Shown here: in pieces, positions 37,424 through 64,000 of the stretch
How positions within the stretch are numbered: the stretch's first letter is position 1
Layout of the letters: each line of letters starts with the position of its first letter
NCBI GenBank assembly: GCA_963783675.1
Contig: CAWAOU010000027.1
Span: 13,221 to 77,220 of the forward strand
Source: an uncultured Gammaproteobacteria bacterium
GTDB lineage: Bacteria; Pseudomonadota; Gammaproteobacteria; Competibacterales; JAHEDQ01
Length of the DNA stretch: 64,000 nt
Direction: 5' to 3'
Notes under the pieces: model-generated
Seen by the model: the letters and a program-made list of their open reading frames with translations, nothing else
What the model was told of the DNA's origin: nothing
The model's database searches: none
Position numbers and translations under genes: made by a program

Positions 37424-39762
37424 ATGCGCATTCTCGTGATGCTGCCGTTGCTGCTTTTCTGGGCACCGCTGATCGCGGCCCAATCCCACAATACCGTATC
37501 CGCTGAGTTGGCCGAGAGTAAGGGCTGCCTGTCCTGCCACGAGGGCATCGAGCGGTTTACCGACGGGCCCATGATGGACGCGATTGCGGCCATCGGATCA
37601 GCTCACAAAGATCCCGGTGGCTGCGTCGTCTGCCACGGTGGAAATCCCATTGCCACCGCAAAGGAGCAGGCGCATACCGGCGCACCGGATCTGCTGAAGC
37701 AAGGCGGCGGACCCTCCATGTTCTTCCCCGACCCGGGCAGTGTCTGGATCGCCGACAAGACCTGCGGCCAATGCCATGCAGGCTATGCCGACCGACTCAC
37801 TAAATCGCCTGATGAACACCGAGGCCGGCAAACTTCAGGGCAACCTGTGGTCCTGGGGCGTGATCGACACGCACAGTCGGTCTACGGCAACTACGACATG
37901 ACGATGAAGACGGTCTGACACCCGCGGTCGGTACCGAGGCCTACGAATCCTACATGGTGGCATTCATCGCCGCGCACCCGGAACAGATGCCGAGTCGAAT
38001 GGAGCAGGTTGCCGGAAGTCAACGTCGATGAAATCTCGGACCACCCTAACCTGGCCGGCATCACCTACTCGCGCCAGCAGTGCCAACGGTGCCACGTGGG
38101 CGTAACCGGGCGGGAGAAGCGGGGCGACTACCGCGGCACCGGCTGCTCGTCCTGCCACGTTCCCTACTCCAACGAGGGCCTCTACGAGGGCGGCGATCCC
38201 GACGATCGCAAAGATCAACCCGGCAAGCTGCTGGTCCACCGCATGCAGGCGACCCGCAAATCCAAGGTTCAGGTCGGCGACGTGACCATTACTCCGGTAT
38301 ACCGTCCGAGACCTGCAACTCCTGCCACAACCGCGGCAAGCGGATCGGCGTAAGCTACCAGGGCATCATGGAATTCCCCTACGGTCGCCCTATAACGCCA
38401 CCGGTGGCAAGCAGCCCAAGCTGCACACCAAGAACTATCTCTACATCAAGGACGACCTGCACCATCAGCAGGTGAGCCGGCCGGGCAACCCGGAAGGCGG
38501 AATGCTGTGCCAGGATTGCCACACCTCGATCGACATGCATGGCGACGGCAACCTGCCGGGCACCACGCTGGCGCAGGTCGAAATCGAGTGTGAGGACTGC
38601 CACGGCACCGTCGCGCAGTTGCCCTGGGATCTGCCGCTGGGTTACGGCGAAGAGCACGGCATGGACGCTTGCGGGCACGCCCGCGGGGTCTGGCCTCCAA
38701 CCGCCGAGCCTTCATGTTCGCGACCGAGTATCCGGCTGAGGACGGCTATCTGCTGACCGCCCGAGGCAACCCGTTCGGCAATGTGGTCGACAAGGTGACA
38801 AGGTGATCATGCACTCGGCCTCCGGTCTCGACTTCGAGGTGCCGGTGCTCAAGCAGCTCGCCGACGACGACACCTGGAAGTCACCCGACGCGAAGGTCGC
38901 GATGGGCCAGGTCGGCGCGCATATGGAAAGCATGGAATGCTATGCCTGCCATGCCGACTGGGCGCCGCAGTGCTACGGCTGCCACATCACCGTGGACTAT
39001 TCGGAAGGCAAGACCGACGTGGACTGGATCCACAACGCCAACGCCCGCACCGAAAACGGCCTCACCGCCGACAACGAGCTGGGCACCAACGGCCTGACCA
39101 GCGCGGGCAAGGTATCGGAGACCCGCTCCTACCTGCGTTGGGAAAGCCAATCCTCGGGATCAACGGTGAAGGCCGGGTCAGCCCGCTGATGCCAGGCTGC
39201 CAGGTGATCACCACGGTGATCGACAAGGACGGCAACACGGTGGCCGAGAACGAGACCTGGATGACGCCCGGAGCCGGGGACCAAGGGTCTGGACCACGCC
39301 GCGGTGCAGCCGCATACCGCGGGGCGCAAGGCGCGAAGCTGCGAGAGCTGCCATGACAACCCCAAAGCCCTGGGCTACGGGATCAGGGTGGCCGATTCAT
39401 GCAGGGCTATGACAAGGGCTTCGTGGTCGATCTGGAAACCGCAACCGGGCGAGACCATCCCCGGTCAATACGCAGGTCCAGTCGCAGCCGATCCCGTCGC
39501 TCGACCATGCGATCTTTGCCGGATCGTGACCGAGGACAACGTGCAACTGGTGACCGTGGGCTCGCATTGGCCGAACTGACCGGCCCGCTGCCGCAGGAGA
39601 TGCGGGACAAGATGGAACGCACCGGCCTGTGCATGGGTTGCCACCAGGAAATGACCGAACGAAGCCTTGTGGAGCAAAGTCAATCAGCCGGGCTGGGCCA
39701 CCAATGACGCCCACCGGGACGTGCTGAACAAGGCCCTCAAGGCCTATGCGGCCGAACAGTAA
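37424..39762 (+). pseudogene. multiheme c-type cytochrome (12 CxxCH motifs), disrupted by many frameshifts
   Basis: Signal peptide MRILVMLPLLLFWAPLIAAQ. CxxCH motifs CLSCH, CVVCH, CGQCH, CQRCH, CSSCH, CNSCH, CQDCH, CEDCH, CYACH, CYGCH, CESCH and CMGCH are spread over ORFs 37424 (f2), 38009 (f2), 38080 (f1), 38472 (f3), 38803 (f1), 38937 (f3), 39304 (f1) and 39399 (f3). Protein-like sequence continues when hopping frames. The final stop is at 39760-39762. Confidence 0.85.
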
Positions 39763-47258: not shown

Positions 47259-48098
47259 TTGAGCGAAATCCTGCCTCTGAGCGCGGCTGTGGTGGTGGAC
47301 ACAGACACCCTGAAGGGATATCTGGCTTTCGCCCACCGGCTGGTGAACGCCTCGGCCCAGGTGATAAAACCGCATTTCAGGGCCAACGGCAGGGTCGATA
47401 ACAAAGCCGGGCAAAGTGAGTACGACCCGGTCACACTCGCCGACCGGGATGCTGAAACAGCCATCCGGGCACTGATCCAGCAGCACCATCCCGACCACGG
47501 AATCTTCGGCGAAGAGCACGGTTTCGAAGCGGGGCGTTCGGGATTGACCTGGGTGATCGACCCCATCGACGGGACCCGAGCATTCATCACCGGTATGCCG
47601 CTGTGGGGCACGCTGCTGGCCCTGTTCGACGGCCAGCGGCCGCTGCTCGGAATCATGGACCAGCCGTTCACCGGCGAACGCTTTATCGGCAGCCGCCTGG
47701 GGGCCTGGCTGGAGCACGGAGGCCATCGCCACCCGCTGCGCACCCGCCCCTGTGACGACCTGGGGCACGCTGTCATGCAAACCACACATCCCGACATGTT
47801 TTCAGGCGACGCCGAGGCTGCGGCGTTCAATTCGCTGGTGAAGCGCGTCCAGCTCACCCGCTACAGCGGCGACTGCTATGCCTACTGCATGCTGGCCCAT
47901 GGTCTGATCGATCTGATTGTGGAGTCGAACCTGAAGCCGTATGACATCCAGGCGCTGATCCCGATCATCGAATCGGCAGGCGGGCGGGTGACGGATTGGC
48001 GGGGTAACGATCCGGTTCAGGGTGGACAAGTCGTTGCGGCCGGGGATGCACGACTGCATGCGCAAGCGCTGACGCTGCTGGCAGCGGGCGCGGTATGA
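47259..48098 (+). CDS. inositol monophosphatase family protein (histidinol-phosphatase HisN-like)
   Basis: WVIDPIDGTRAFITGMPLWGTLLAL and YSGDCYAYCMLAHGLIDL motifs. TTG start in the ORF track; the start is uncertain. Confidence 0.8.
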   Translation: MSEILPLSAAVVVDTDTLKGYLAFAHRLVNASAQVIKPHFRANGRVDNKAGQSEYDPVTLADRDAETAIRALIQQHHPDHGIFGEEHGFEAGRSGLTWVIDPIDGTRAFITGMPLWGTLLALFDGQRPLLGIMDQPFTGERFIGSRLGAWLEHGGHRHPLRTRPCDDLGHAVMQTTHPDMFSGDAEAAAFNSLVKRVQLTRYSGDCYAYCMLAHGLIDLIVESNLKPYDIQALIPIIESAGGRVTDWRGNDPVQGGQVVAAGDARLHAQALTLLAAGAV

Positions 48099-48113
48099 TC
48101 CCACCGACGGCGC

Positions 48114-48560
48114 TCAACCCCGCGGAAATCTCTGGGTGACCGGTCCATCCGCCGTCAGCAGCGTGTTGCTCAACACCCGTTCCTCGTGTTCCATACGCCA
48201 GCTCAGCAGTTTTTGCGCGTAGTGCAGCATTTGCTCCCGGTGGCCGGGGTCATTGGCGAGATTGTGAAATTCGTTGGGATCCCGCCTCAAATCGAACAGC
48301 AGCGGCGGCAGGGCGGTGAAGTGCACGTATTTGTAGCACGTGTCGCGGATCACGTTGAGCGCGCACTGGTCACTGGCCAAACCCAGTGCCACCTCGGCGC
48401 TCTGGGTCACAGGCTCGCGAAAATCAAAAGCCCAATGCACCTCTTCTCGCCAACGATCCGGCATCTCGCCCGCCAGCAGGGGGCTCAAAGACTGTCCGTC
48501 GCAGCCGGGCGGCGGCTGGATCCCCAGCCAGCATCTTGGTGTCGTTACATCCGGTTCCTG
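48114..48560 (-). pseudogene. sulfatase / alkaline-phosphatase-superfamily C-terminal fragment (5'-truncated)
   Basis: Only the C-terminal about 140 aa are present (...GIQPPPGCDGQSLSPLLAGE...LLFDLRRDPNEFHNLANDP...). The catalytic N-terminal domain is missing. Homology stops next to the lower-GC dsbA segment. Confidence 0.7.
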
Positions 48561-49254: not shown

Positions 49255-49817
49255 GAGTATAAGACGAACAAACGCCCTTTTCCGAAAGTTGATCGTGTAT
49301 CCCCAAGTCATCAAACAGTCGCCAAACCGCTTTTCAGTTTGGTGTCGGCCGTGATCGGCCCTTCTGGGCCGGCAGAAGCGGCCAAGATCGAGTAGTTCAG
49401 CCAATTTCTTAACGAATTCCCCGCATCGGGCCGAACGCGATCAAAGCCACAACGCTCAGCGTCGCAGTCGGGGGGTGTTACCGGGTAGCCCGGTTCAGTC
49501 GTCGAACCGTCCCGCCTGGGGCGGCGCCCGACACGGCGGCCGCCTCGTGGCTTGGGGCTCAACCGCTTTCGCATCCAGGTGGCTGAGGATCTTGTCGATG
49601 ACCTCCGGCTGCTCGATGCAGGCGATAATCCGCACCGCCCCACCGCAGGCCCGGCAGGTCTCAACGTCGATACCGAACACCCGCTTCAGACGCTGCGCCC
49701 AGGTCATTGAGGCGCGGCGTTCGGCCGGCGTCGCCTCCTCCCCATCCCCCGTCGCAGCACGCTGGCCTCCCCTGCCACGCTTGGCCGGTGTCACCCGCGC
49801 GCGGTATTTGCTGTTCG
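49255..49817 (-). mobile_element. IS91-family 3' (oriIS-proximal) fragment, copy 1 (563 bp)
   Basis: Near-identical to 59213-59775 and 62901-63463. Encodes only the last about 108 aa of the transposase (NSKYRARVTPAKR...). Ends exactly after an internal GTTC (ctgttcg) at 49817. Confidence 0.85.
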
Positions 49818-55940: not shown

Positions 55941-57251
55941 ATGATTGCGCGCTTCGAAAAACCCGGTGCGCGACTGCTGTATCGTTTTTGCGTTACAGGC
56001 GTATGGGCACTGACGTTGGCTCAGGCTGCCTTCGCTCAAGACTTGAACAGCGAAGGGCAGCCAAGGGCTTTCGGTGGGCCGGATGCCGTACAGAACAGGA
56101 TCGAATCAGACAGCGTTTCAACAGATGCACCTCTGAAGCTGGATTTCCTGAAGCCCTGGTACCAATGGAAAGACAAGCTCAAGGAGGAACACGGCCTGGC
56201 GTTCGGGGTGGAGTACAACTCGGTGTACCTGACGGCCAGCGACCGCCTACCCGGTGCCGACAAAGATGCGGCTGGCGGTATCTTTCGCTTCAGCGGTGTC
56301 TGGGAGGCGTTTGGCCGGGGCTCGGCTCACCCTGGCAACTTGAGCTTTCTTGTCGAGCGCACGGACGAATTCACCAGTACGGGACCGAGTTCGTTACTTG
56401 GCGAGAGCCTGGGCTATGCCGGAATCTCAAACATTCCCTACAACGACGAAGGGTGGCGGCTCAACACGCTCTACTGGGATCAGAAGTTCCAGGGTGGAAA
56501 GTATGAGGTGGTCGGTGGTTACCTCGATATCAGCGATTACGTCGATGTATTCCCGCTGGTCAGCCCCTGGACAGATTTTTTCAATTACGCCTTTAGCATC
56601 GGGGTCGGCGCCCTCGACCTTCCCAGCGATGGCGCACTGGGGTTTGCGGGGGCGGCCTGGTTGACAGATACGGTCTACGCAATGGCGGGCTTTGTCGACG
56701 AGAATGCGGATGCCACCGATCCCTTGGAAGGGTTTGATACATTCTTCAACGATAGGGAGTACTTCAAACACGTCGAGATAGGCTGGACCGGGGCTTCGCA
56801 GGAGGCCTACTACCTCAACAACGTTCATCTGACCCTGTGGCAGGCGGATGAACGCGATGAGTCGGGCGTGGAGGACGGTTGGGGGGGCGTGCTGTCATTT
56901 AACCACACCATCGGCGACAAATGGCTGGTGTTCGCCCGGACCGGGTGGGCGGAGGACAGCGGCAGCCTGCTGGAACGGTCGGTCAGCATTGGGGGCGGCT
57001 ATACGCCCGGCGGCATGGCAACGCTGGGGTCGGGAAGCCAGTTTGGATTCGGCCTCAATTGGGGCCGGCCGAACGATGCCCTGTTCGGTACGAATCTGGA
57101 TGACCAATACGCAACGGAGGTCTACTATCGCTGGCAATTGGCCGATGAAATCGCGATCACACCGAGTCTGCAACTACTGATCGACCCGGCGCTGAACCCG
57201 GAGGAAGATACGCTCTGGGTAGGTGGTCTGCGGGCACGACTGGCATTTTGA
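55941..57251 (+). CDS. OprB-family (carbohydrate-selective-like) porin
   Basis: Signal peptide ...LAQAAFAQD. FGGPDAVQNRIESD and alternating beta-strand pattern ending ...GGLRARLAF (aromatic terminus). Confidence 0.65.
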   Translation: MIARFEKPGARLLYRFCVTGVWALTLAQAAFAQDLNSEGQPRAFGGPDAVQNRIESDSVSTDAPLKLDFLKPWYQWKDKLKEEHGLAFGVEYNSVYLTASDRLPGADKDAAGGIFRFSGVWEAFGRGSAHPGNLSFLVERTDEFTSTGPSSLLGESLGYAGISNIPYNDEGWRLNTLYWDQKFQGGKYEVVGGYLDISDYVDVFPLVSPWTDFFNYAFSIGVGALDLPSDGALGFAGAAWLTDTVYAMAGFVDENADATDPLEGFDTFFNDREYFKHVEIGWTGASQEAYYLNNVHLTLWQADERDESGVEDGWGGVLSFNHTIGDKWLVFARTGWAEDSGSLLERSVSIGGGYTPGGMATLGSGSQFGFGLNWGRPNDALFGTNLDDQYATEVYYRWQLADEIAITPSLQLLIDPALNPEEDTLWVGGLRARLAF

Positions 57252-57395
57252 TCCGCCGTTTCGTCACAGTTGAGGAAGCTGTGATCTGCTCGACAATCCC
57301 GTCACACCGACCGAAGTGGAGGGATCCATCTATTGCCAGAAATCGCGCATTACACCCATGACAAACGGGCAGTAGCCGCAATTGAAGTGACAGCT

Positions 57396-58649
57396 ATGAC
57401 TCATACCAAGCCACAACTGCTGTTTCCGATTGCAGCAGCACTGCTGATAGCCGGGTGCGCCGGCAATACCCTGATCGAGACCCCCAGCGTTTACGAGAAG
57501 ACCGGAACACCTTTGTTCGTCGACCTGGAGCCCGCGCTACAGGGGGATACGCTCGAGGTGCTTTACGTAACCGACCGCCTGCCGCAAAAGGTGCAATCCG
57601 GCGTAGCCACGTACGGCAGCGGGCGCTCCATGTCGAGCGCGCTGGGCGTCGCCCAAGTGGCGATCGAGCCCGATAACGGCAAACCGAACACCACACGGAA
57701 AATCGAACTGATGGCAGTCGACGAACTGGTCCGCTTCCCGGAGACACCGTATCTGTATCGTGTCGCGGACGGTGGCCGCATCGAGATCGAGCCAACCGCC
57801 GTCCTAGAGCGCGAAACTGCCTGGCTGGAGGCACGCGAACAGATCGTCGAGCGTTTGGCATTGACGCCCAAGAAGGACGTCTTCCTCGATGTGCACGGAG
57901 TCGGAACCGATTTTGATGGAGCGGTGCTGGAGCTGGCGGCGTTCTGGCATTATCTGGGGAGAGAGGGCGTTCCCATAGCTTACACTTGGCCGGCGGGCAG
58001 CGAAGGGCTTCTGTTCTTTTACACCACCGATCGGGAATCGGGCGAGTTCACGATACTGCATCTGAAAGAGTTTCTGCGCCTTCTCGCTGAGATTCCGGAG
58101 GTGGAGCGCATTCATGTCACAGCCCACAGCCGCGGCACGGATGTCGTGATAACGGCGCTGCGCGAGTTGATCATCGAGGCAAGAGCCAAGGGACTCGATC
58201 CTCGCACGCACCTCAAGGTCGAAAACCTCGTTCTTGTCGCCGCGGATATCGATCTGGAAGTCGACATGCAACGCAACGAGGGTGAGGCCATTGCCCCCGC
58301 GTTCGGCCGTACGACCGTTTACACCAATGCCGAGGACAAGGCCCTGGCAGCTGCTTCGGGCCTGTTCAGCAGCCAGCAGCGTGTCGGCAGCGTGGATCTG
58401 AGCGAGCTGACCGATCGGCAGCGGGAATTCGTGCGTCGCTCCAGCGATCTCGATTTCATCGTATACGAGGGCATAGGCGGTGGCTTCTTTCGACACGGCT
58501 ACTACGAAGATCCGGTAGTGAGCTCGGACATCCTGATGCTGCTACGCTACGGCTGGGGGCCCAACGAGGGTGAGCGCCAAGGTTTGCAACAGCTTGACGA
58601 GAACACCTGGCGGATTGATTCAACCTACTGGAGTACCGCAGGCCGATGA
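57396..58649 (+). CDS. lipoprotein, alpha/beta hydrolase of DUF900 type
   Basis: Lipobox LIAGC. HVTAHSRGTDV nucleophile-elbow-like motif. Length and layout as in DUF900 esterases. Confidence 0.7.
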   Translation: MTHTKPQLLFPIAAALLIAGCAGNTLIETPSVYEKTGTPLFVDLEPALQGDTLEVLYVTDRLPQKVQSGVATYGSGRSMSSALGVAQVAIEPDNGKPNTTRKIELMAVDELVRFPETPYLYRVADGGRIEIEPTAVLERETAWLEAREQIVERLALTPKKDVFLDVHGVGTDFDGAVLELAAFWHYLGREGVPIAYTWPAGSEGLLFFYTTDRESGEFTILHLKEFLRLLAEIPEVERIHVTAHSRGTDVVITALRELIIEARAKGLDPRTHLKVENLVLVAADIDLEVDMQRNEGEAIAPAFGRTTVYTNAEDKALAAASGLFSSQQRVGSVDLSELTDRQREFVRRSSDLDFIVYEGIGGGFFRHGYYEDPVVSSDILMLLRYGWGPNEGERQGLQQLDENTWRIDSTYWSTAGR

Positions 58650-59212
58650 GAAGGCGGTTGCTGCCAGAGCCGCACCTGACTATGCAATCAACTCGGCCTT
58701 GCTGAGGTGCCGAACCGATCTGTTCGCTCTGTCTCCGCTGGCATCCGAACGTTCACGAGGCGTGCCCGGGGCCTTGTTCGCGACGCGGACGCAAGCATCC
58801 GGGCGATCAACAGAGGGTTTGCCGGTGAATCTGGGAAAACCGAGGTCGGTCTGCCGGCGCCGCATCGATGAGAGCAGGCGGGCCTGACCGCGGTCGACGC
58901 GGCGAAGTCCCTGGTGTCACTTACGGTTGGGCTGCGTGTTCTGGCTCGCGGTACGTTCGATGCGGTGGGCTTGTTGGCAATAAAGAACAACATCCTGAGG
59001 CTGATCGGACATTAGAACGACGTTTGATGGCCCTGGTCCCGCGTGCAGTGGAATTGTGGGTGTATTCCCACCGCCCCGCTGTTGAGGCTACACAGTACGT
59101 ATGGCTGGTTTTCAGAGCCTCGTGATTCAGGGCTGTTCAGTGCCATAATCCATCTATGGAAGACCTCGGCATGGACGAGAACATGAACATCGCCTACGGT
59201 GCGGCCGTATCG

Positions 59213-60745
59213 GAGTATAAGACGAACAAACGCCCTTTTCCGAAAGTTGATCGTGTATCCCCAAGTCATCAAACAGTTGCCAAACCGCGTTTCAGTTTGG
59301 TGTCGGCCGTGATCGGCCCTTCTGGGCCGGCAGAAGCGGCCAAGATCGAGTAGTTCAGCCAATTTCTTAACGAATTCCCCGCATCGGGCCGAACGCGATC
59401 AAAGCCACAACGCTCAGCGTCGCAGTCGGGGGGTGTTACCGGGTAGCCCGGTTCAGTCGTCGAACCGTCCCGCCTGGGGCGGCGCCCGACACGGCGGCCG
59501 CCTCGTGGCTTGGGGCTCAACCGCTTTCGCATCCAGGTGGCTGAGGATCTTGTCGATGACCTCCGGCTGCTCGATGCAGGCGATAATCCGCACCGCCCCA
59601 CCGCAGGCCCGGCAGGTCTCAACGTCGATACCGAACACCCGCTTCAGACGCTGCGCCCAGGTCATTGAGGCGCGGCGTTCGGCCGGCGTCGCCTCCTCCC
59701 CATCCCCCGTCGCAGCACGCTGGCCTCCCCTGCCACGCTTGGCCGGTGTCACCCGCGCGCGGTATTTGCTGTTCGGCGCAAACACCCCGTGGAAACGGGT
59801 CAGATTGACTCTCGGTTTCGGCACCAAAGCGGCCAGCCGGGCAATGAAATCCAGCGGCTCGAACATCACATGCGTAGTACCGTCGCGGTACGGGGTCTTC
59901 AGCTGGTAACGAACGTTCCCATTCGCCGTGAGCGACAGGCGCTTTTCCGACACCGCCGGGCGGCTGATGTAGCGGCACAGCCGCTCCAGCTTCCCTCTTT
60001 CATCCGCTCTCGCCGCCACGCCCGCGTGCAGCGAGAAACCGGCCACCTTGCCCACCCCGTCATCGAACCGATCATCGCAGGCCGGCAGCGTCCGTAGCGT
60101 GAATACCTTGCGCCCCTGCTGCGGCCCGACAGCGATGCGGTAGGTGATCGACGAACCCAGGAGTTGATGCATAGGCCCGGCCTCGAAGTGGTCGCCGGCC
60201 AGATAGCAGTTCTCCGCATCGCGCTCCAGCAGCCCCTGCCGTTCGAGGTAGCGGCCGATACGCAGCGCCAGGGTCTGCGCCAGCCGGCTGAGTTCGGTGC
60301 TCGTCGGCGCCTTCACCCAGCGGAATCGGAGCGAGCCGTCCGAGCCCTCCACGTACACCCCATCGAGGAACAGCATGTGAAAGTGGATGTTCAGGTTCAG
60401 CGCGCTGCCGAAGCGCTGGATCAGCGTGACCGCGCCGCTCCGGGCCGTCTTGCAGGAAAAACCGGCCTTCTTGGTCAGGTGTGTGGCGATGCAACGGTAG
60501 ACGATGCCCAGCACCCGGCCCATAACAGCAGGGCGGCTGGCGAACAGGAAACGTAAGGGATACGGAACGCTCAACACCCACTGGCGCACCGGCTGCTCGG
60601 CAAACACCTCGTCCACCAGCAATGCCGCGCTCTCGGCCATGCGCCGGGCACCGCAGCTGGGACAAAAGCCCCGGCGTTTGCAACTGAACGCCACCCATTG
60701 ATCGCCATGGCAACTGTCGCAGCGCAGCACCACGTGCCCTGCAAA
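59213..60745 (-). mobile_element. IS91-family element, copy 2 (oriIS end intact, 5'/terIS side missing)
   Basis: Left boundary GAGTATAAGACGAAC is shared with copies 1 and 3. The right boundary is approximate, where the transposase frame merges with a truncated dehydrogenase gene. Confidence 0.8.
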
Positions 60746-60781
60746 GCTGGACGACTCCTGATCCAACGCCTCCGGAGGCAC
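59453..60781 (-). CDS. IS91-family (Y2/HUH rolling-circle) transposase, N-terminally truncated
   Basis: VLRCDSCHGDQWVAFSCKRRGFCPSCGARRMAESAALLVDEV zinc-binding region and the rest of the IS91-type core. The usual about 55 N-terminal residues preceding this motif are absent. Confidence 0.85.
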   Translation of the reverse strand: MPPEALDQESSSFAGHVVLRCDSCHGDQWVAFSCKRRGFCPSCGARRMAESAALLVDEVFAEQPVRQWVLSVPYPLRFLFASRPAVMGRVLGIVYRCIATHLTKKAGFSCKTARSGAVTLIQRFGSALNLNIHFHMLFLDGVYVEGSDGSLRFRWVKAPTSTELSRLAQTLALRIGRYLERQGLLERDAENCYLAGDHFEAGPMHQLLGSSITYRIAVGPQQGRKVFTLRTLPACDDRFDDGVGKVAGFSLHAGVAARADERGKLERLCRYISRPAVSEKRLSLTANGNVRYQLKTPYRDGTTHVMFEPLDFIARLAALVPKPRVNLTRFHGVFAPNSKYRARVTPAKRGRGGQRAATGDGEEATPAERRASMTWAQRLKRVFGIDVETCRACGGAVRIIACIEQPEVIDKILSHLDAKAVEPQATRRPPCRAPPQAGRFDD

Positions 60782-61334
60782 CCGTTACCAAAACTCTTTC
60801 GCCTTCTGAGACCCGTGCTCTTCTGAGCATATGCTCCCCGGTGATATAAGCACAACAGAAGGTTGCAAGTTCGGTGTCTGTTAAGGATGTCTCAACACAG
60901 TGCGCATTCTCTGCGGGCACCGATACGTACTCGGCAAACCCGCCAGGTCGACCTGATCCAATATAATCGTGGCTTGGGATATCGTTTCCAGGGCCGGCAT
61001 ACATTCCAAAATCGACCATGACACGCCGGCCGATAAGGGAGGAATCAATATCTGTACCGCAACCAACAATAACACCCGCTATGTCGGCACCTTGGATTAT
61101 TGGGAATGCTAGCGGACTATCTCCAAAAGAGGCTACCGCATCCGGATCATCAGATACACCATAGGCACCTTCTCGAACCCGGATATCCGTATTATTAATT
61201 CCGCAGGCACCAACTCGAACAAGCACTTCGCCTGAACCAACGTCGGGGGTCGGCCAGTTATTCTCGAACACGAGCTTTCCTGGTCCGCCGTGCCCGGTTA
61301 ACAACATTGCTTTCATCGTCTTTGGAATGGGCAT
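60740..61334 (-). pseudogene. zinc-type alcohol dehydrogenase / quinone oxidoreductase (MDR family), 3'-truncated
   Basis: MKAMLLTGHGGPGKLVFENNWPTPDVGSGEVLVRVGACGINNTDI...VLVTGASGGVGS, then the reading frame runs into IS91 sequence. Only about 195 aa of an expected about 330 are present. Confidence 0.75.
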
Positions 61335-61403
61335 GGCTTAACTCGGGTTGGGAATTTAGTGAATTGGAAACGTGCCACATAACGTCAAAGTTGAGTGGGG
61401 GTT

Positions 61404-62312
61404 CTACCCCGTCTCCACGGACGGTTTTAAAATGGCTGAAAACTTCTGATCTTGTGCAGCAACTCTACGCCGCATTCTGGAATTGTGAAATCGCTCAATG
61501 TAGTCGAACACATCAGCCCTGGCTTCATTCCGGGTGCGGTACCGGCGATGGTGAATCCTTTCGCGTTTGAGTACCCCGAAGAATCCCTCACACGCGGCGT
61601 TGTCGCCGCAATGACCTACAGCACTCATACTGCTGATCAAAGTGTTCTGCCCCAGGAACCGCTGGTAGTCGCCGCTAGTGAATTGGCAGCCTCGATCGGA
61701 ATGTAAAATCACCTTTGTGGCCTCCTGGCGCTGCCAGATAGCCATCTCAACCGCTCGAATGACCATGTGCCGATCCTGTCGATGATGCATCGCCCAGCCA
61801 ATGACAAGCTTGCTGAACAGGTCGAGAACGACGCACAGAAACAGCTTCCCTTCTAATGTCTTGATCTCCGTGATGTCAGTGACCCATTTGCTTTCCGGCT
61901 CCAATGCCGTGAAGTCCCGGCGCAGATGATTCTCAACGCCCGCGGGACGCATACTGGAACCTTTCCAGCGCTTGGGCTTTTTCCGTGGCCAGCCTTGTAT
62001 GTTGTGAGATGCCATCAGGCGTGCAACACGGTTCAAACTGGCTGTCTCACCCTCGGCAGCCAAATCCTCGTGCATACGCGGCGCACCAATTACGCCACCA
62101 CTGTCGTCGTGGATCTCGCGTATGCGTACCAGCAGACGCGCATTGTCCGATTCACGAGGACTCGGCTTGCGTGATACCCAAGCGTAATACCCGCTGGATG
62201 AAACATTCAGGCAGCGGCACATAAGACGAACAGGAAAATCATCGCGACAACGTTGGATCGCCTGATACCTCAGGACGATTCCTTCGCAAAGAACGTTGCC
62301 GCTTCGCGTAAA
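61404..62312 (-). CDS. IS3-family transposase OrfB (DDE), expressed by -1 frameshift from OrfA
   Basis: [30 protein letters not shown]...[10 protein letters not shown]...[16 protein letters not shown]. The -1 frame is open back to a T TTT TTA heptamer at 62309-62315. The ORF-track ATG is at 62222. Confidence 0.85.
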
Positions 62313-62563
62313 AAATCCCGTTCCTTCTTCACCCGCGCCAACTCGCGCTTGAGCCGGGCAACCTCCTCATCCCGAGGTGTGCCGGAGCCGCTGAACGCTT
62401 TGCCAGATACCGCACCGGCTTCACGTTTCCAGCGGCTCAGCAGATTGGGATTGATCCCGATCTCAAGCGCGACCTGGCGGCAACTCACCCCTGGCTGGCG
62501 AGTCAATGCAACGGCTTCTTGCTTGAACTCCGGGCTGTACTTTCTTCGCTTAGACATGAACAC
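62270..62563 (-). CDS. IS3-family transposase OrfA (HTH)
   Basis: [46 protein letters not shown] is canonical IS3 OrfA. Confidence 0.9.
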
Positions 62564-62900
62564 TCCTTCGGCACATTGTGCCTCTTCTTGGAAGTGTCCG
62601 TGTTAACGGGGTAGAACCCGTCCTTCAGACAGGTCAGTCGCGGTCAGGTAGGCGAGGAGTTGGTACAGGTCGCCATGCTGCAGTCCTGGCGCCCTGAGGC
62701 CCTTGTATTTGACGTCGCCAATAAAGTGGCAGATGCCCGCCCTCCCCCCAGCCGATGTCCGGCCTAAGGCGCACTGATTCGCCCTGGTCGAGGGTCAGCG
62801 CATGGCCAACGCACTCCTGCGGGAACGATCGCTGTGTAAGGTTAAGTTCTTCTCCTTAGGGTAAGGGTCAACGACCAGATAAGATCCCCGGGCAGGCTGT

Positions 62901-63627
62901 GAGTATAAGACGAACAAACGCCCTTTTCCGAAAGTTGATCGTGTATCCCCAAGTCATCAAACAGTCGCCAAACCGCTTTTCAGTTTGGTGTCGGCCGTGA
63001 TCGGCCCTTCTGGGCCGGCAGAAGCGGCCAAGATCGAGTAGTTCAGCCAATTTCTTAACGAATTCCCCGCATCGGGCCGAACGCGATCAAAGCCGCAACG
63101 CTCAGCGTCGCAGTCGGGGGGTGTTACCGGGTAGCCCGGTTCAGTCGTCGAACCGTCCCGCCTGGGGCGGCGCCCGACACGGCGGCCGCCTCGTGGCTTG
63201 GGGCTCAACCGCTTTCGCATCCAGGTGGCTGAGGATCTTGTCGATGACCTCCGGCTGCTCGATGCAGGCGATAATCCGCACCGCCCCACCGCAGGCCCGG
63301 CAGGTCTCAACGTCGATACCGAACACCCGCTTCAGACGCTGCGCCCAGGTCATTGAGGCGCGGCGTTCGGCCGGCGTCGCCTCCTCCCCATCCCCCGTCG
63401 CAGCACGCTGGCCTCCCCTGCCACGCTTGGCCGGTGTCACCCGCGCGCGGGATTTGCTGTTCGGCGCAAACACCCCGTGGAAACGGGTCAGATTGACTCT
63501 CGGTCTGGGCACCAGGGCCGCCAGCCGGGCAATGAAATCGAGGGGTTCAAAGATGACGTGCGTCGTACCGTCGCGGTACGGGGTCTTCAGCTGGTAACGA
63601 ACGTTCCCATTCGCGGTGAGCGACAGG
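62901..63627 (-). mobile_element. IS91-family 3' fragment, copy 3 (727 bp, mosaic)
   Basis: 62901-63450 is near-identical to copies 1 and 2. 63451-63627 aligns with copy 2 with about 15 substitutions, mostly silent in the transposase frame. Homology ends at 63627. Confidence 0.8.
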
Positions 63628-63934
63628 GGGATGGATTCCGCATGGCGTTCCAGCTACGAGACCGCAAGTTTGTGATCGGCGGTAATGCCGGGTGGTGATC
63701 GCGAACGCTTAACCGCGCCGGGCTTTGCTTTGGTCATAGCGATGGGGCGTCTCCTCTTGCGGTTTTCCTCAATGCTCCACGTTTCTAGCCGGGGTCGCCG
63801 GACGCGCAACGGGCGGCCCGCTCCATTCGCTGCGCTCCCGTGTTGCCCGTTCCCCTGCGGTGCCCGTCCGGCTTGTCCCCCGTCTTCGATGTTTCGCGTG
63901 TTTCGGAAAAACCGCTTAACAGAGGAGACCAACC

Positions 63935-64000
63935 ATGACCAAGAACAGCGCACCCCGGCAGGACGTTTACACCCGCGTCACCGACAAGATCGTCGCCGAT
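63935..64000 (+). CDS. ArdC-like / DUF1738 N-terminal domain protein (partial, runs off window)
   Basis: GAGGAG Shine-Dalgarno, then MTKNSAPRQDVYTRVTDKIVAD, which resembles the N-terminus of ArdC/DUF1738 ssDNA-binding proteins of conjugative elements. Only 22 codons are visible. Confidence 0.45.
   Translation, partial: MTKNSAPRQDVYTRVTDKIVAD

What the first reader, a model, noticed from the sequence alone, without database searches (positions are those of the whole stretch)
62901..63627. IS91 copy 3 is a mosaic: identical oriIS module joined to a roughly 8-9% diverged transposase segment
Offsets 0-549 from the oriIS end are essentially identical in all three copies, with 1-2 differences. From offset 550 (63451) to 726 (63627), copy 3 differs from copy 2 at about 15 positions. 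Most are silent in the transposase frame (…YRDGTTHVIFEPLDFIARLAALVPRPRVNL versus …HVMFEPLDFIARLAALVPKPRVNL). The switch point (offset about 550) lies within 12 bp of where copy 1 is truncated (offset 562). This implies that a roughly 550-bp oriIS module is being homogenised (gene conversion) or exchanged between related IS91 lineages, or is itself the unit that moves.
Basis: seen in the sequence. Interest (0 to 1): 0.6.

Follow-up and report, generated by a model that had tools for sequence, protein, structure and literature searches.

The report
Foreign 60-bp patch in ISCR remnant
Three broken copies of one rolling-circle insertion sequence (ISCR/IS91 type) are nearly identical except for a 60-base stretch in copy 2, not copy 3, that was probably copied in from a related element; this is ordinary recombination between mobile-element copies.

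Summary
The counts are right. Copies 2 and 3 differ at 3 sites in offsets 0-549 and at 15 sites in 550-726, 12 of them silent. The pattern, however, is not a switch at offset 550. Thirteen differences lie in one 60-bp patch (offsets 604-663). Offset 550 is a private change in copy 3, and offset 714 is a lone extra marker. Beyond the patch, copy 2 matches the standard sequence again (one further difference, at 1248, up to offset 1513).

Copy 3 is the standard sequence. It has 1 mismatch in 727 bp to a full-length 498-aa element in a related metagenome-assembled genome (MAG), and about ten other copies carry the same patch. Only copy 2 and its counterpart in that MAG carry the odd patch.

The MAG is collinear with the window. 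Where the window has copy 2, a truncated dehydrogenase gene, an IS3 element, a gene fragment and copy 3, the MAG has one 727-bp remnant. That remnant is 100% identical to the start of copy 2 and is followed by copy 3's right flank.

Best reading: a short recombination tract between ISCR lineages, plus gain or loss of a 3.7-kb segment by homologous recombination at the remnant. No donor was found, and outgroups do not settle which version is original. The "oriIS module" idea is not supported. Low interest.

The parts
49255..49817 (-). Copy 1 (c1): ISCR remnant, offsets 0-562 from the oriIS end. It holds 240 bp of noncoding sequence plus the last 106 codons of the transposase gene. It ends before the patch.
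   Evidence: BLAST within the window. It has 1 mismatch to the full-length copy in L083. The same copy with the same junctions is in the related MAG.
59213..60726 (-). Copy 2 (c2): offsets 0-1513. It holds the oriIS end, the stop codon at 59453-59455, and transposase codons 75-498. The first 74 codons and the terIS end are missing.
   Evidence: Pfam Y2_Tnp 1.7e-35 and a partial Zn_Tnp_IS91 domain. It has 18 mismatches in 1514 bp to the full-length copy: offsets 65, 76, 194, 13 in the patch, 714 and 1248. Offsets 0-726 are 100% identical to the solo remnant in the MAG.
59817..59876 (-). The unusual 60-bp patch ('r' type) in copy 2, offsets 604-663. It has 13 differences from the standard sequence: 11 synonymous, plus K for R and M for I. 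A lone linked marker lies at 59927 (offset 714).
   Evidence: It is found only here and at L083 6598-6657.
60727..61334 (-). 5' part (about 202 codons) of a zinc-type alcohol dehydrogenase / quinone oxidoreductase gene, cut off and fused to the truncated transposase gene. GC content is 52%.
   Evidence: Pfam ADH_N 7.8e-16; translation; GC content; homology to the ISCR ends at 60726.
61396..62619 (-). IS3-family insertion sequence (orfA 62273-62563, orfB 61407-62222) with 24-nt terminal inverted repeats. No target-site duplication is visible.
   Evidence: Pfam HTH_Tnp_1 and rve; inverted repeats at 61399-61422 and 62596-62619; flanks read.
62620..62900 (-). Segment X: a fragment of a PD-(D/E)XK nuclease-like (McrC-like) gene with a frameshift. 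It abuts the oriIS end of copy 3.
   Evidence: Six-frame translation shows ...FIGDVKYKGL...HGDLYQLLAYL.... The family assignment is my reading of the motif and was not confirmed by a profile search.
62901..63627 (-). Copy 3 (c3): offsets 0-726. It has the standard sequence of the element and is truncated at the same point, next to the same flank, as the MAG's solo remnant.
   Evidence: 1 mismatch in 727 bp to the full-length copy in L083, and 99.6-99.8% identity to L081, L082 and L087.
63505..63564 (-). The standard version of the patch in copy 3.
   Evidence: Identical at all 13 sites to every copy other than c2 and the MAG remnant.
63451..63451 (-). Private substitution in copy 3 (offset 550, T to G, Tyr to Ser).
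   Evidence: All other copies have T. It is the only difference between c3 and the full-length copy.
63628..63935 (.). Right flank of copy 3, upstream of an ArdC-like gene that starts at 63936. In the MAG, 63628-63819 follows the solo remnant directly.
   Evidence: There are 8 differences in 192 bp against the MAG, compared with 0.08% over the 20 kb to the left. The ArdC assignment comes from the Pfam ArdcN hit on the MAG gene.
62901..63140 (-). Noncoding oriIS-proximal region (also at 59213-59452 and 49255-49494). It has a terminal motif shared with ISCR2 and two palindromes.
   Evidence: GTATAAGACGAACAAACGCCCTTTTC here versus GTATAGGAAGAATAAACGCCCTTTTC in ISCR2; folding; eight different flanks begin exactly at this end.

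Best explanation
The three repeats are dead remnants of one recently active ISCR-type (IS91-family, rolling-circle) insertion sequence. The element is about 2.0 kb and encodes a 498-aa transposase. Copy 3 and copy 1 carry its standard sequence.

The first 727 bp of copy 2 are the local version of an older solo remnant, here called R. R carries a 60-bp stretch (offsets 604-663) templated by a different ISCR lineage. This looks like a short gene-conversion tract or patchy heteroduplex repair. The differences are almost all synonymous, so the stretch must have evolved inside a working transposase gene rather than in the dead copy.

Separately, copies 2 and 3 are direct repeats around a 3.7-kb segment. 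That segment holds the rest of a standard truncated ISCR, a truncated dehydrogenase gene, an IS3 element and a nuclease-gene fragment. It was gained, or lost in the sister genome, by homologous recombination at the 727-bp remnant, with the exchange at the very end of the homology (offsets 715-726).

Shown: the bounded patch, its synonymous bias, which copies carry it, and the one-copy versus two-copy structures in two near-identical genomes.

Inferred: gene conversion as the mechanism, the direction of the 3.7-kb change, and that R rather than the master element was the recipient of the patch.
For: The patch is bounded on both sides: Fisher 1e-14 against 664-1513 and 3e-12 against 0-603, and the best model has two breakpoints at 604/664. 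Clustering gives P<3e-8, and 11 of 13 changes are synonymous against 29% expected (P=5e-5).

The standard patch is in the full-length copies and every other fragment, with eight or more different flanks at the oriIS end. The r patch is only in c2 and the MAG remnant.

MAG contig CALOET010000045.1 is collinear with window 39507-59939. Divergence is 0.08% over the last 20 kb and 100% identity over 57000-59939. The MAG then continues directly into c3's right flank.

Offsets 727-1513 of c2 are standard apart from 1 site.

The same species carries other ISCR lineages that could serve as donors: fragments with about 60% (amino acid) and 87% (DNA) identity to the standard element.

A 23-26 nt run from the right half of the r patch occurs in distant family members, so it is a natural family sequence.

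ISCR-flanked repeat units and circular intermediates are well documented for ISCR2 (PMC7190383).
Against: No donor carrying the r patch was found in metagenome contigs, plasmids, viral contigs or 100 or so related loci. The best match has 10 of 13 r-specific sites.

Outgroups do not polarise the change. The closest relative, L002 (88% DNA identity), matches both versions at 52 of 60 positions.

Both copies are 'pure': c2 has all R markers through offset 714 and c3 has none. The exchange must therefore lie in the last 12 bp of homology. That is unlikely if crossovers are spread evenly, though expected if strand exchange runs to the end of homology.

The right flank differs from the MAG by 4%, against 0.08% on the left. 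The two genomes therefore differ by more than one simple insertion or deletion here.

Both sequences may come from metagenome assemblies from the same study.
Confidence: 0.6

Rival explanations
1. Reverse direction. The r patch is the original sequence of this element, preserved in an old remnant (R/c2). The master copy acquired the 'standard' patch by conversion from another lineage before it multiplied. On this view every standard copy, copy 3 included, is the mosaic.
For: Outgroup states are mixed. At 604, 639, 642, 645 and 648 most relatives share the r state; at 614, 615, 651, 654 and 657 they share the standard state. K in 'VPKPR' is the family majority, and the R of the standard element is rare. 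R shares 76G and 194A with other copies, so it could be an early branch.
Against: Outside the patch, R is about 99.5% identical to the standard element, noncoding DNA included. The L084-L086 sub-lineage has the standard patch but is about 6% diverged in that noncoding DNA. An early-branching R should be at least as diverged. No donor for the standard patch was found either.
Confidence: 0.22
2. A roughly 550-bp oriIS module is kept uniform across copies, or is swapped between lineages, or moves on its own, and in copy 3 it is joined to a diverged transposase segment.
For: The first 550 bp are nearly identical in all three copies. In relatives L084-L086 the noncoding oriIS-proximal 240 bp is much more diverged than the gene, so module-level mosaics do occur in this family.
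Against: Divergence returns to baseline after offset 663 and stays there to 1513. Copy 3 is the standard sequence throughout. Offset 550 is a private change. The near-identity of offsets 0-550 is matched by the rest of the element, so it simply reflects recent common origin. The marker pattern in the MAG contradicts movement of a unit from one oriIS end to the next.
Confidence: 0.04
3. Assembly or polishing artefact. Reads from a different ISCR were mixed into the consensus of one repeat copy, or the contig switches between strain variants at the repeat.
For: The related sequence is a MAG, and the window may be one too. The flank differences against the MAG include homopolymer-length changes. 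Repeats are where consensus errors concentrate.
Against: The identical patch occurs at the same locus in two assemblies, within a 2.9-kb stretch of 100% identity. The patch keeps the reading frame and is 85% synonymous. A 23-26 nt run of it exists in natural relatives. A donor 22% different over 60 bp would not normally be mis-mapped.
Confidence: 0.06
4. Clustered mutation in place (an error-prone repair patch) in the dead copy.
For: The changes are tightly clustered in 60 bp.
Against: Eleven of 13 changes are synonymous and the other two are conservative, against 29% synonymous expected for random changes (P=5e-5). Nine of the 13 lie on a three-base grid of third-codon positions. A dead remnant is under no selection that could produce this.
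Confidence: 0.01

Closest known systems
ISCR elements (ISCR2/ISVsa3, ISCR1), the IS91-family subgroup
   Same: The transposase has Y2_Tnp and Zn_Tnp_IS91 domains and is 75-77% identical to ISCR2/ISCR1-type proteins. DNA identity is 77-83% in the conserved region. The oriIS end lies about 240 bp downstream of the stop codon and shares a terminal motif with ISCR2 at 22 of 26 positions. There are no terminal inverted repeats. DNA beyond terIS travels with the element. Truncated copies keep the oriIS end.
   Different: This is an uncharacterised lineage from uncultured gammaproteobacteria; the closest loci are MAGs, and the nearest named genome is Nitrococcus mobilis at 78% amino-acid identity. 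It is not linked to resistance genes here. All three window copies are defective.
ISCR2-bracketed repeat units and circular intermediates, e.g. ISCR2-abh-tet(X4)-ISCR2 (PMC7190383)
   Same: Direct repeats of an ISCR bracket a cargo segment, and closely related genomes have one or two copies. This fits loop-out and re-integration by homologous recombination or rolling-circle copying.
   Different: Here both repeats are truncated remnants that could only act as homology. The cargo is a truncated dehydrogenase gene plus an IS3 element, and no circular form was observed.
IS91, IS801 and IS1294 (experimentally active IS91-family members; PMC13181058)
   Same: The overall layout is terIS, then tnpA, then oriIS. 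There are palindromes near oriIS, there is one-ended read-through past terIS, and the ends are not inverted repeats.
   Different: The 5'-CTTG/GTTC tetranucleotide next to oriIS that those elements require is absent. The eight flanks read ACAG, CGAT, CTAT, TTGC, CGCG, CACG, GCCT and TTCC. There is no orf121.
Short-tract gene conversion between diverged repeats (mosaic insertion sequences and multigene families)
   Same: A bounded patch tens of bp long and about 22% diverged sits inside otherwise more than 99.5% identical copies, and its substitutions bear the mark of selection on a functional gene.
   Different: The donor copy has not been identified, so conversion is inferred from the pattern only.

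Membership tests
IS91 family / ISCR subgroup | HUH-type rolling-circle transposase (Pfam Y2_Tnp) with an N-terminal zinc-binding domain (Zn_Tnp_IS91) | tested here: met
   Copy 2 gives Y2_Tnp 1.7e-35 and a partial Zn_Tnp_IS91 hit at 3.5e-11. The full-length 498-aa relative P0122 has both domains and contains an H-F-H motif in 'NLNIHFHM'.
IS91 family / ISCR subgroup | Two different ends (terIS upstream of tnpA, oriIS downstream) with no terminal inverted repeats | tested here: met
   The oriIS end is fixed by eight different flanks. The terIS-side end is fixed by three kinds of flank. The ends align no better than shuffled sequence: score 7 against a shuffle mean of 7.3.
IS91 family / ISCR subgroup | Conserved oriIS terminal sequence and subterminal palindromes | tested here: met
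   22 of 26 terminal bases match ISCR2. Two hairpins (GGCCC-AGAA-GGGCC and CCAAAC...GTTTGG) lie within 120 nt of the end. The overall folding z-score is only -1.9.
IS91 family / ISCR subgroup | Specific tetranucleotide (5'-CTTG/GTTC) next to oriIS, as in IS91, IS801 and IS1294 | tested here: not met
   The eight flanks show no consensus. This feature defines the classical IS91 members (PMC13181058). To my knowledge it is not established for ISCRs.
IS91 family / ISCR subgroup | One-ended transposition: DNA beyond terIS is carried along | tested here: met
   A 120-bp dnaJ-like fragment plus an IMPase-like 3' fragment follow terIS in L083, L084 and L085, whose oriIS flanks differ, and also in L108, whose oriIS side is not in hand. 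L107 shows the intact dnaJ-like context. This is inferred from comparison, not from an assay.
IS91 family / ISCR subgroup | No target-site duplication | not tested
   No empty site for a simple insertion was available.
Gene-conversion mosaic | Divergent tract bounded on both sides by near-identical sequence | tested here: met
   13 of 60 differ inside the tract, against 3 of 604 and 2 of 850 outside. The two-breakpoint model is favoured.
Gene-conversion mosaic | An identifiable donor carrying the tract | tested here: not met
   No exact or near-exact donor was found in metagenome, viral or plasmid collections or in fetched loci. The rest of the source genome could not be searched.
Gene-conversion mosaic | The tract evolved under selection in a functional homologue | tested here: met
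   11 of 13 changes are synonymous against 29% expected, P=5e-5.
Segment gained or lost by homologous recombination between direct ISCR repeats | A related genome with a single repeat copy and the same outer flanks | tested here: met
   The MAG contig has left flank, 727-bp remnant, right flank.
Segment gained or lost by homologous recombination between direct ISCR repeats | An exchange point inside the shared homology | tested here: inconclusive
   Markers confine the exchange to offsets 715-726. Both copies are otherwise pure types. The right flank is 4% diverged.

The most novel reading that the evidence does not exclude
The short patch was written by the rolling-circle machinery itself. 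On this reading, template switching between two co-resident ISCR lineages during transposase-driven replication produced it. ISCR families would then make micro-mosaics and oriIS-retaining truncated copies (offsets 563, 727, 781, ~1478, 1514) as regular by-products of aborted or switched replication, rather than by host recombination.
Probability: 0.06. Interest if true: 0.5.

Novelty: new member of a known kind. Interest (0 to 1): 0.2.

Why it matters
It matters little for general biology. It corrects the annotation of this locus: three defective ISCR remnants, with copy 2 rather than copy 3 the atypical one. It also defines a previously undescribed ISCR lineage from environmental gammaproteobacteria, about 2016 bp long, with both ends mapped. 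Two near-identical genomes provide a natural one-copy versus two-copy pair, showing that a dead 727-bp ISCR remnant can still serve as a recombination site for a 3.7-kb segment. That is a modest, concrete example of how ISCR fragments shape gene neighbourhoods outside the antibiotic-resistance setting. It is not a new mechanism.

Tried and rejected
(1) Donor search for the r patch. An exact 31-mer in metagenome contigs gave no hits. A 23-mer gave five distant ISCR relatives at 68-79% identity, none of them a donor. The viral contig scan gave nothing. The best plasmid match was 83%. Among 106 aligned loci the best non-self match had 10 of 13 r states.

(2) Donor search for the standard patch, using relatives that share the rare Arg residue (P0009, P0038). 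They matched 53/60 and 46/60, so neither is a donor.

(3) Deciding which patch is original by outgroups. L002 ties at 52/60 for both versions, and site-by-site states are mixed.

(4) Exact-protein look-ups for the copy-2 ORF, the dehydrogenase fusion ORF and the copy-3 ORF, to find more genomes with these junctions. None is on record. The r-type 137-aa ORF is found only in the one MAG.

(5) PLSDB search for the window's source or a close plasmid. It returned only ISCR1, ISCR2 and IS3 relatives at 73-79%.

(6) tRNA and Rfam scans for integration sites or structured RNAs near the copies found nothing.

(7) I first took the GTTC 179 bp upstream of the start codon, where two contigs end, to be terIS. 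I rejected this because other copies stay conserved for about 100 bp further.

(8) Excision from oriIS end to oriIS end by the transposase, as the source of the one-copy/two-copy difference. I rejected this because the retained copy in the MAG is the wrong type.

Full report
**1. The observation**

A self-comparison of the window finds three ungapped repeats that start at the same base (GAGTATAAG...). They are c1 at 49255-49817 (563 bp), c2 from 59213, and c3 at 62901-63627 (727 bp).

c2 and c3 differ at 18 positions. Counted from the shared end, these are offsets 65, 76, 194, 550, 604, 606, 614, 615, 618, 639, 642, 645, 648, 651, 654, 657, 663 and 714. c1 agrees with c3 at 65 and 76, and with c2 at 194 and 550.

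The transposase gene runs on the minus strand, with its stop codon at offset 240. In that frame 12 of the 15 differences are synonymous. The other three are Y/S at 550, K/R at 604 and M/I at 651.

**2. The shape of the divergence**

The divergence is not a step at offset 550. Thirteen differences lie in offsets 604-663 (22% over 60 bp), none in 551-603, and one in 664-726.

- None of 200,000 random placements of 18 differences put 13 in one 60-bp window. A Bonferroni bound gives 3e-8.
- Third-codon positions differ at 11 of 20 inside the patch and at 1 of 142 elsewhere in the coding part (Fisher 5e-11).
- Eleven of 13 patch changes are synonymous, where 29% is expected for random changes (P=5e-5).
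- Against a full-length reference over 1514 bp, c2 differs only at 65, 76, 194, the 13 patch sites, 714 and 1248.
- A two-breakpoint model at 604/664 (log-likelihood -64.7) fits far better than any single breakpoint (-88.0) or none (-97.7).

The feature is therefore a small internal patch, not a module joined to a diverged segment.

**3. What the element is**

The c2 reading frame carries Pfam Y2_Tnp (1.7e-35) and the C-terminal two-thirds of Zn_Tnp_IS91. Plasmid databases hold only ISCR1- and ISCR2 (ISVsa3)-type relatives at 77-83% DNA identity.

The shared end lies 240 bp downstream of the stop codon. Its terminal motif matches ISCR2 at 22 of 26 bases. Two small palindromes lie within 120 nt of it. 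This matches the description of oriIS in the IS91 family (PMC13181058, PMC13393415). Calling it the oriIS end is therefore justified.

A protein search found a 99%-identical cluster whose members include full-length 498-aa proteins. Their contigs give the full element. By comparing flanks, it runs from CTAAATTGCATACGG... on the terIS side to ...CTTATACTC at oriIS. That is about 2016 bp (L083 566-2581), with no terminal inverted repeats.

Eight different sequences abut the oriIS end, with no CTTG/GTTC consensus. In several contigs, 120 bp of a dnaJ-like gene and the 3' part of an IMPase-like gene follow terIS, although three of those contigs have different oriIS flanks. One contig shows the intact dnaJ-like context. 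That is the read-through capture expected of ISCR elements.

**4. Which copy is odd**

c3 differs from the full-length copy in MAG contig CALOET010000045.1 (locus L083) at one base in 727: the private G at offset 550. It is 99.6-99.8% identical to L081, L082 and L087.

At all 13 patch sites and at 714, the c3 state is shared by:
- the MAG's full-length copy;
- L081, L082 and L084-L087;
- three contigs (L095, L096, L098) of a fourth truncated copy, which is cut at offset 781.

The c2 state is shared by only one other sequence, a 727-bp remnant in the same MAG. All full-length proteins read ...HVIFEPLDFIARLAALVPRPRVNL..., as in c3.

**5. The locus in a sister genome**

The MAG contig is collinear with window 39507-59939, c1 and its junctions included. 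Divergence is 0.08% over the last 20 kb, and identity is 100% over 57000-59939.

At offset 727 the MAG remnant, called R here, does not continue into the transposase body. It runs directly into the sequence that follows c3 in the window (63628-63819) and then into an ArdC-like gene.

Relative to the MAG, the window therefore carries an extra 3688 bp, made of:
- standard ISCR offsets 727-1513;
- the first ~202 codons of a zinc-type dehydrogenase gene (60727-61334, GC 52%);
- an IS3-family element (61396-62619) with no target duplication;
- a 281-bp nuclease-gene fragment;
- a second, standard copy of offsets 0-726, which is c3.

c2 offsets 0-726 carry every R marker (65T, 76G, 194A, the patch, 714C), and c3 carries none. 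Any exchange that relates the one-copy and two-copy forms must therefore lie in offsets 715-726, the last bases of shared homology.

The right flank is 4% diverged between the two genomes (8 differences in 192 bp, followed by a deletion of about 220 bp in the MAG that removes the ArdC start). The left side is 0.08% diverged. The two loci are thus not separated by a single event, and I cannot say which form is ancestral.

**6. Mechanism**

The synonymous bias rules out mutation in place in a dead copy. The patch evolved inside a working transposase gene and was transferred by recombination. The simplest account is a short gene-conversion tract, or patchy repair of a heteroduplex, between R and a diverged ISCR.

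The species carries such lineages. A fragment about 60% identical at the amino-acid level adjoins the fourth truncated copy, and a fragment 87% identical in DNA lies 2 kb away. A 23-26 nt run from the right half of the r patch occurs in distant family members.

No donor was found. The nearest outgroup, L002, matches both versions at 52 of 60 positions. The reverse history therefore remains possible: the master element was converted before it multiplied, and R is a fossil.

I favour conversion of R. Its noncoding DNA is standard, whereas the L084-L086 sub-lineage has the standard patch but about 6% divergence in that noncoding DNA.

The two-copy arrangement fits homologous recombination at the remnant, as known for ISCR2-bracketed units (PMC7190383). 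A transposase-driven excision from one oriIS end to the next is contradicted, because it would leave the standard copy beside the left flank in the MAG.

**7.

Recombination between related lineages is supported. Several specifics are not:
- The near-identity of offsets 0-549 is not special. The rest of the element is equally uniform, so it reflects recent common origin and not homogenisation of a module.
- The supposed coincidence with c1's truncation point rests on a private substitution in c3. The data only place the left edge of the patch between offsets 195 and 604.
- Module-level mosaicism around oriIS does appear in relatives (L084-L086), but not in the window copies.

**8. Verdict**

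The sequence feature is real, and it has an ordinary explanation. It belongs to a new, uncharacterised lineage of a known kind of element. Interest is low.

Caveats: the donor is unidentified, the polarity is unresolved, and both sequences may derive from metagenome assemblies.

Noticed in passing
window 61396-62619: IS3-family element with 24-nt inverted repeats and orfA/orfB on the minus strand. It has no target-site duplication, and its two flanks (upstream of a truncated dehydrogenase gene; a nuclease-gene fragment) look unrelated. This suggests it is the product of recombination between two IS copies.
   Followed up: partly
window 60727-61334: The first ~202 codons of a zinc-type alcohol dehydrogenase / quinone oxidoreductase gene (GC 52%, against about 64% for the adjacent ISCR copies) are fused to transposase codon 75. 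This sits at the position where ISCR cargo is expected, beyond the lost terIS end.
   Followed up: partly
L084, L085, L086 (oriIS-proximal 240 bp): A sub-lineage of the same element has about 14 substitutions plus a 10-bp and a 1-bp indel in the noncoding region next to oriIS, but at most 3 substitutions in the 1497-bp transposase gene. That is a module-level mosaic in relatives. The fourth truncated copy in L095/L096 shares three of its states (41A, 76G, 84G).
   Followed up: partly
L083 1-565; L084, L085, L108; window 47970-48409: A 120-bp dnaJ-like fragment plus the 3' end of an IMPase-like gene follow the element's terIS end. In L083, L084 and L085 the oriIS flanks differ, which points to read-through capture. 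L107 has the intact dnaJ-like context. The window's own IMPase-like gene (47259-48098) is a 95% homologue, not the captured copy.
   Followed up: partly
L095 5759-6825 (also L096-L098): A fourth truncated copy (offsets 0-780, standard patch) is joined to the N-terminal part of an ISCR transposase gene only about 60% identical at the amino-acid level. A fragment 87% identical in DNA lies about 2 kb away. The species therefore hosts at least three ISCR lineages.
   Followed up: partly
L103-L110; L081/L082; window 60726: Breakpoints cluster in the zinc-domain region of the transposase gene: about offset 1466 (N-terminal fragments cut at residue 90, in several contigs directly next to tyrosine recombinase genes), about 1478 (L081/L082) and 1514 (copy 2).
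   Followed up: no
window 39507-39678 and 63628-63819, against MAG CALOET010000045.1: The block that is near-identical between the window and the MAG (39.68-59.94 kb, 0.08% divergence) is bordered on both sides by much more diverged DNA. On the left there are 20 differences in 170 bp inside a multihaem cytochrome gene, and on the right 8 in 192 bp. This suggests a recently exchanged 20-kb segment whose right edge is the end of the ISCR remnant.
   Followed up: partly
window 63820-64000, against L083 6339-6200: The MAG lacks about 220 bp that in the window hold the promoter region and first codons of the ArdC-like gene. Several of the nearby differences are homopolymer-length changes, which could be sequencing error.
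   Followed up: no
window 62620-62900: A fragment with a PD-(D/E)XK nuclease motif (FIGDVKYKGL...DLYQLLAYL) is interrupted by a frameshift in a G run. It is cut by the IS3 element on one side and by the oriIS end of copy 3 on the other.
   Followed up: no
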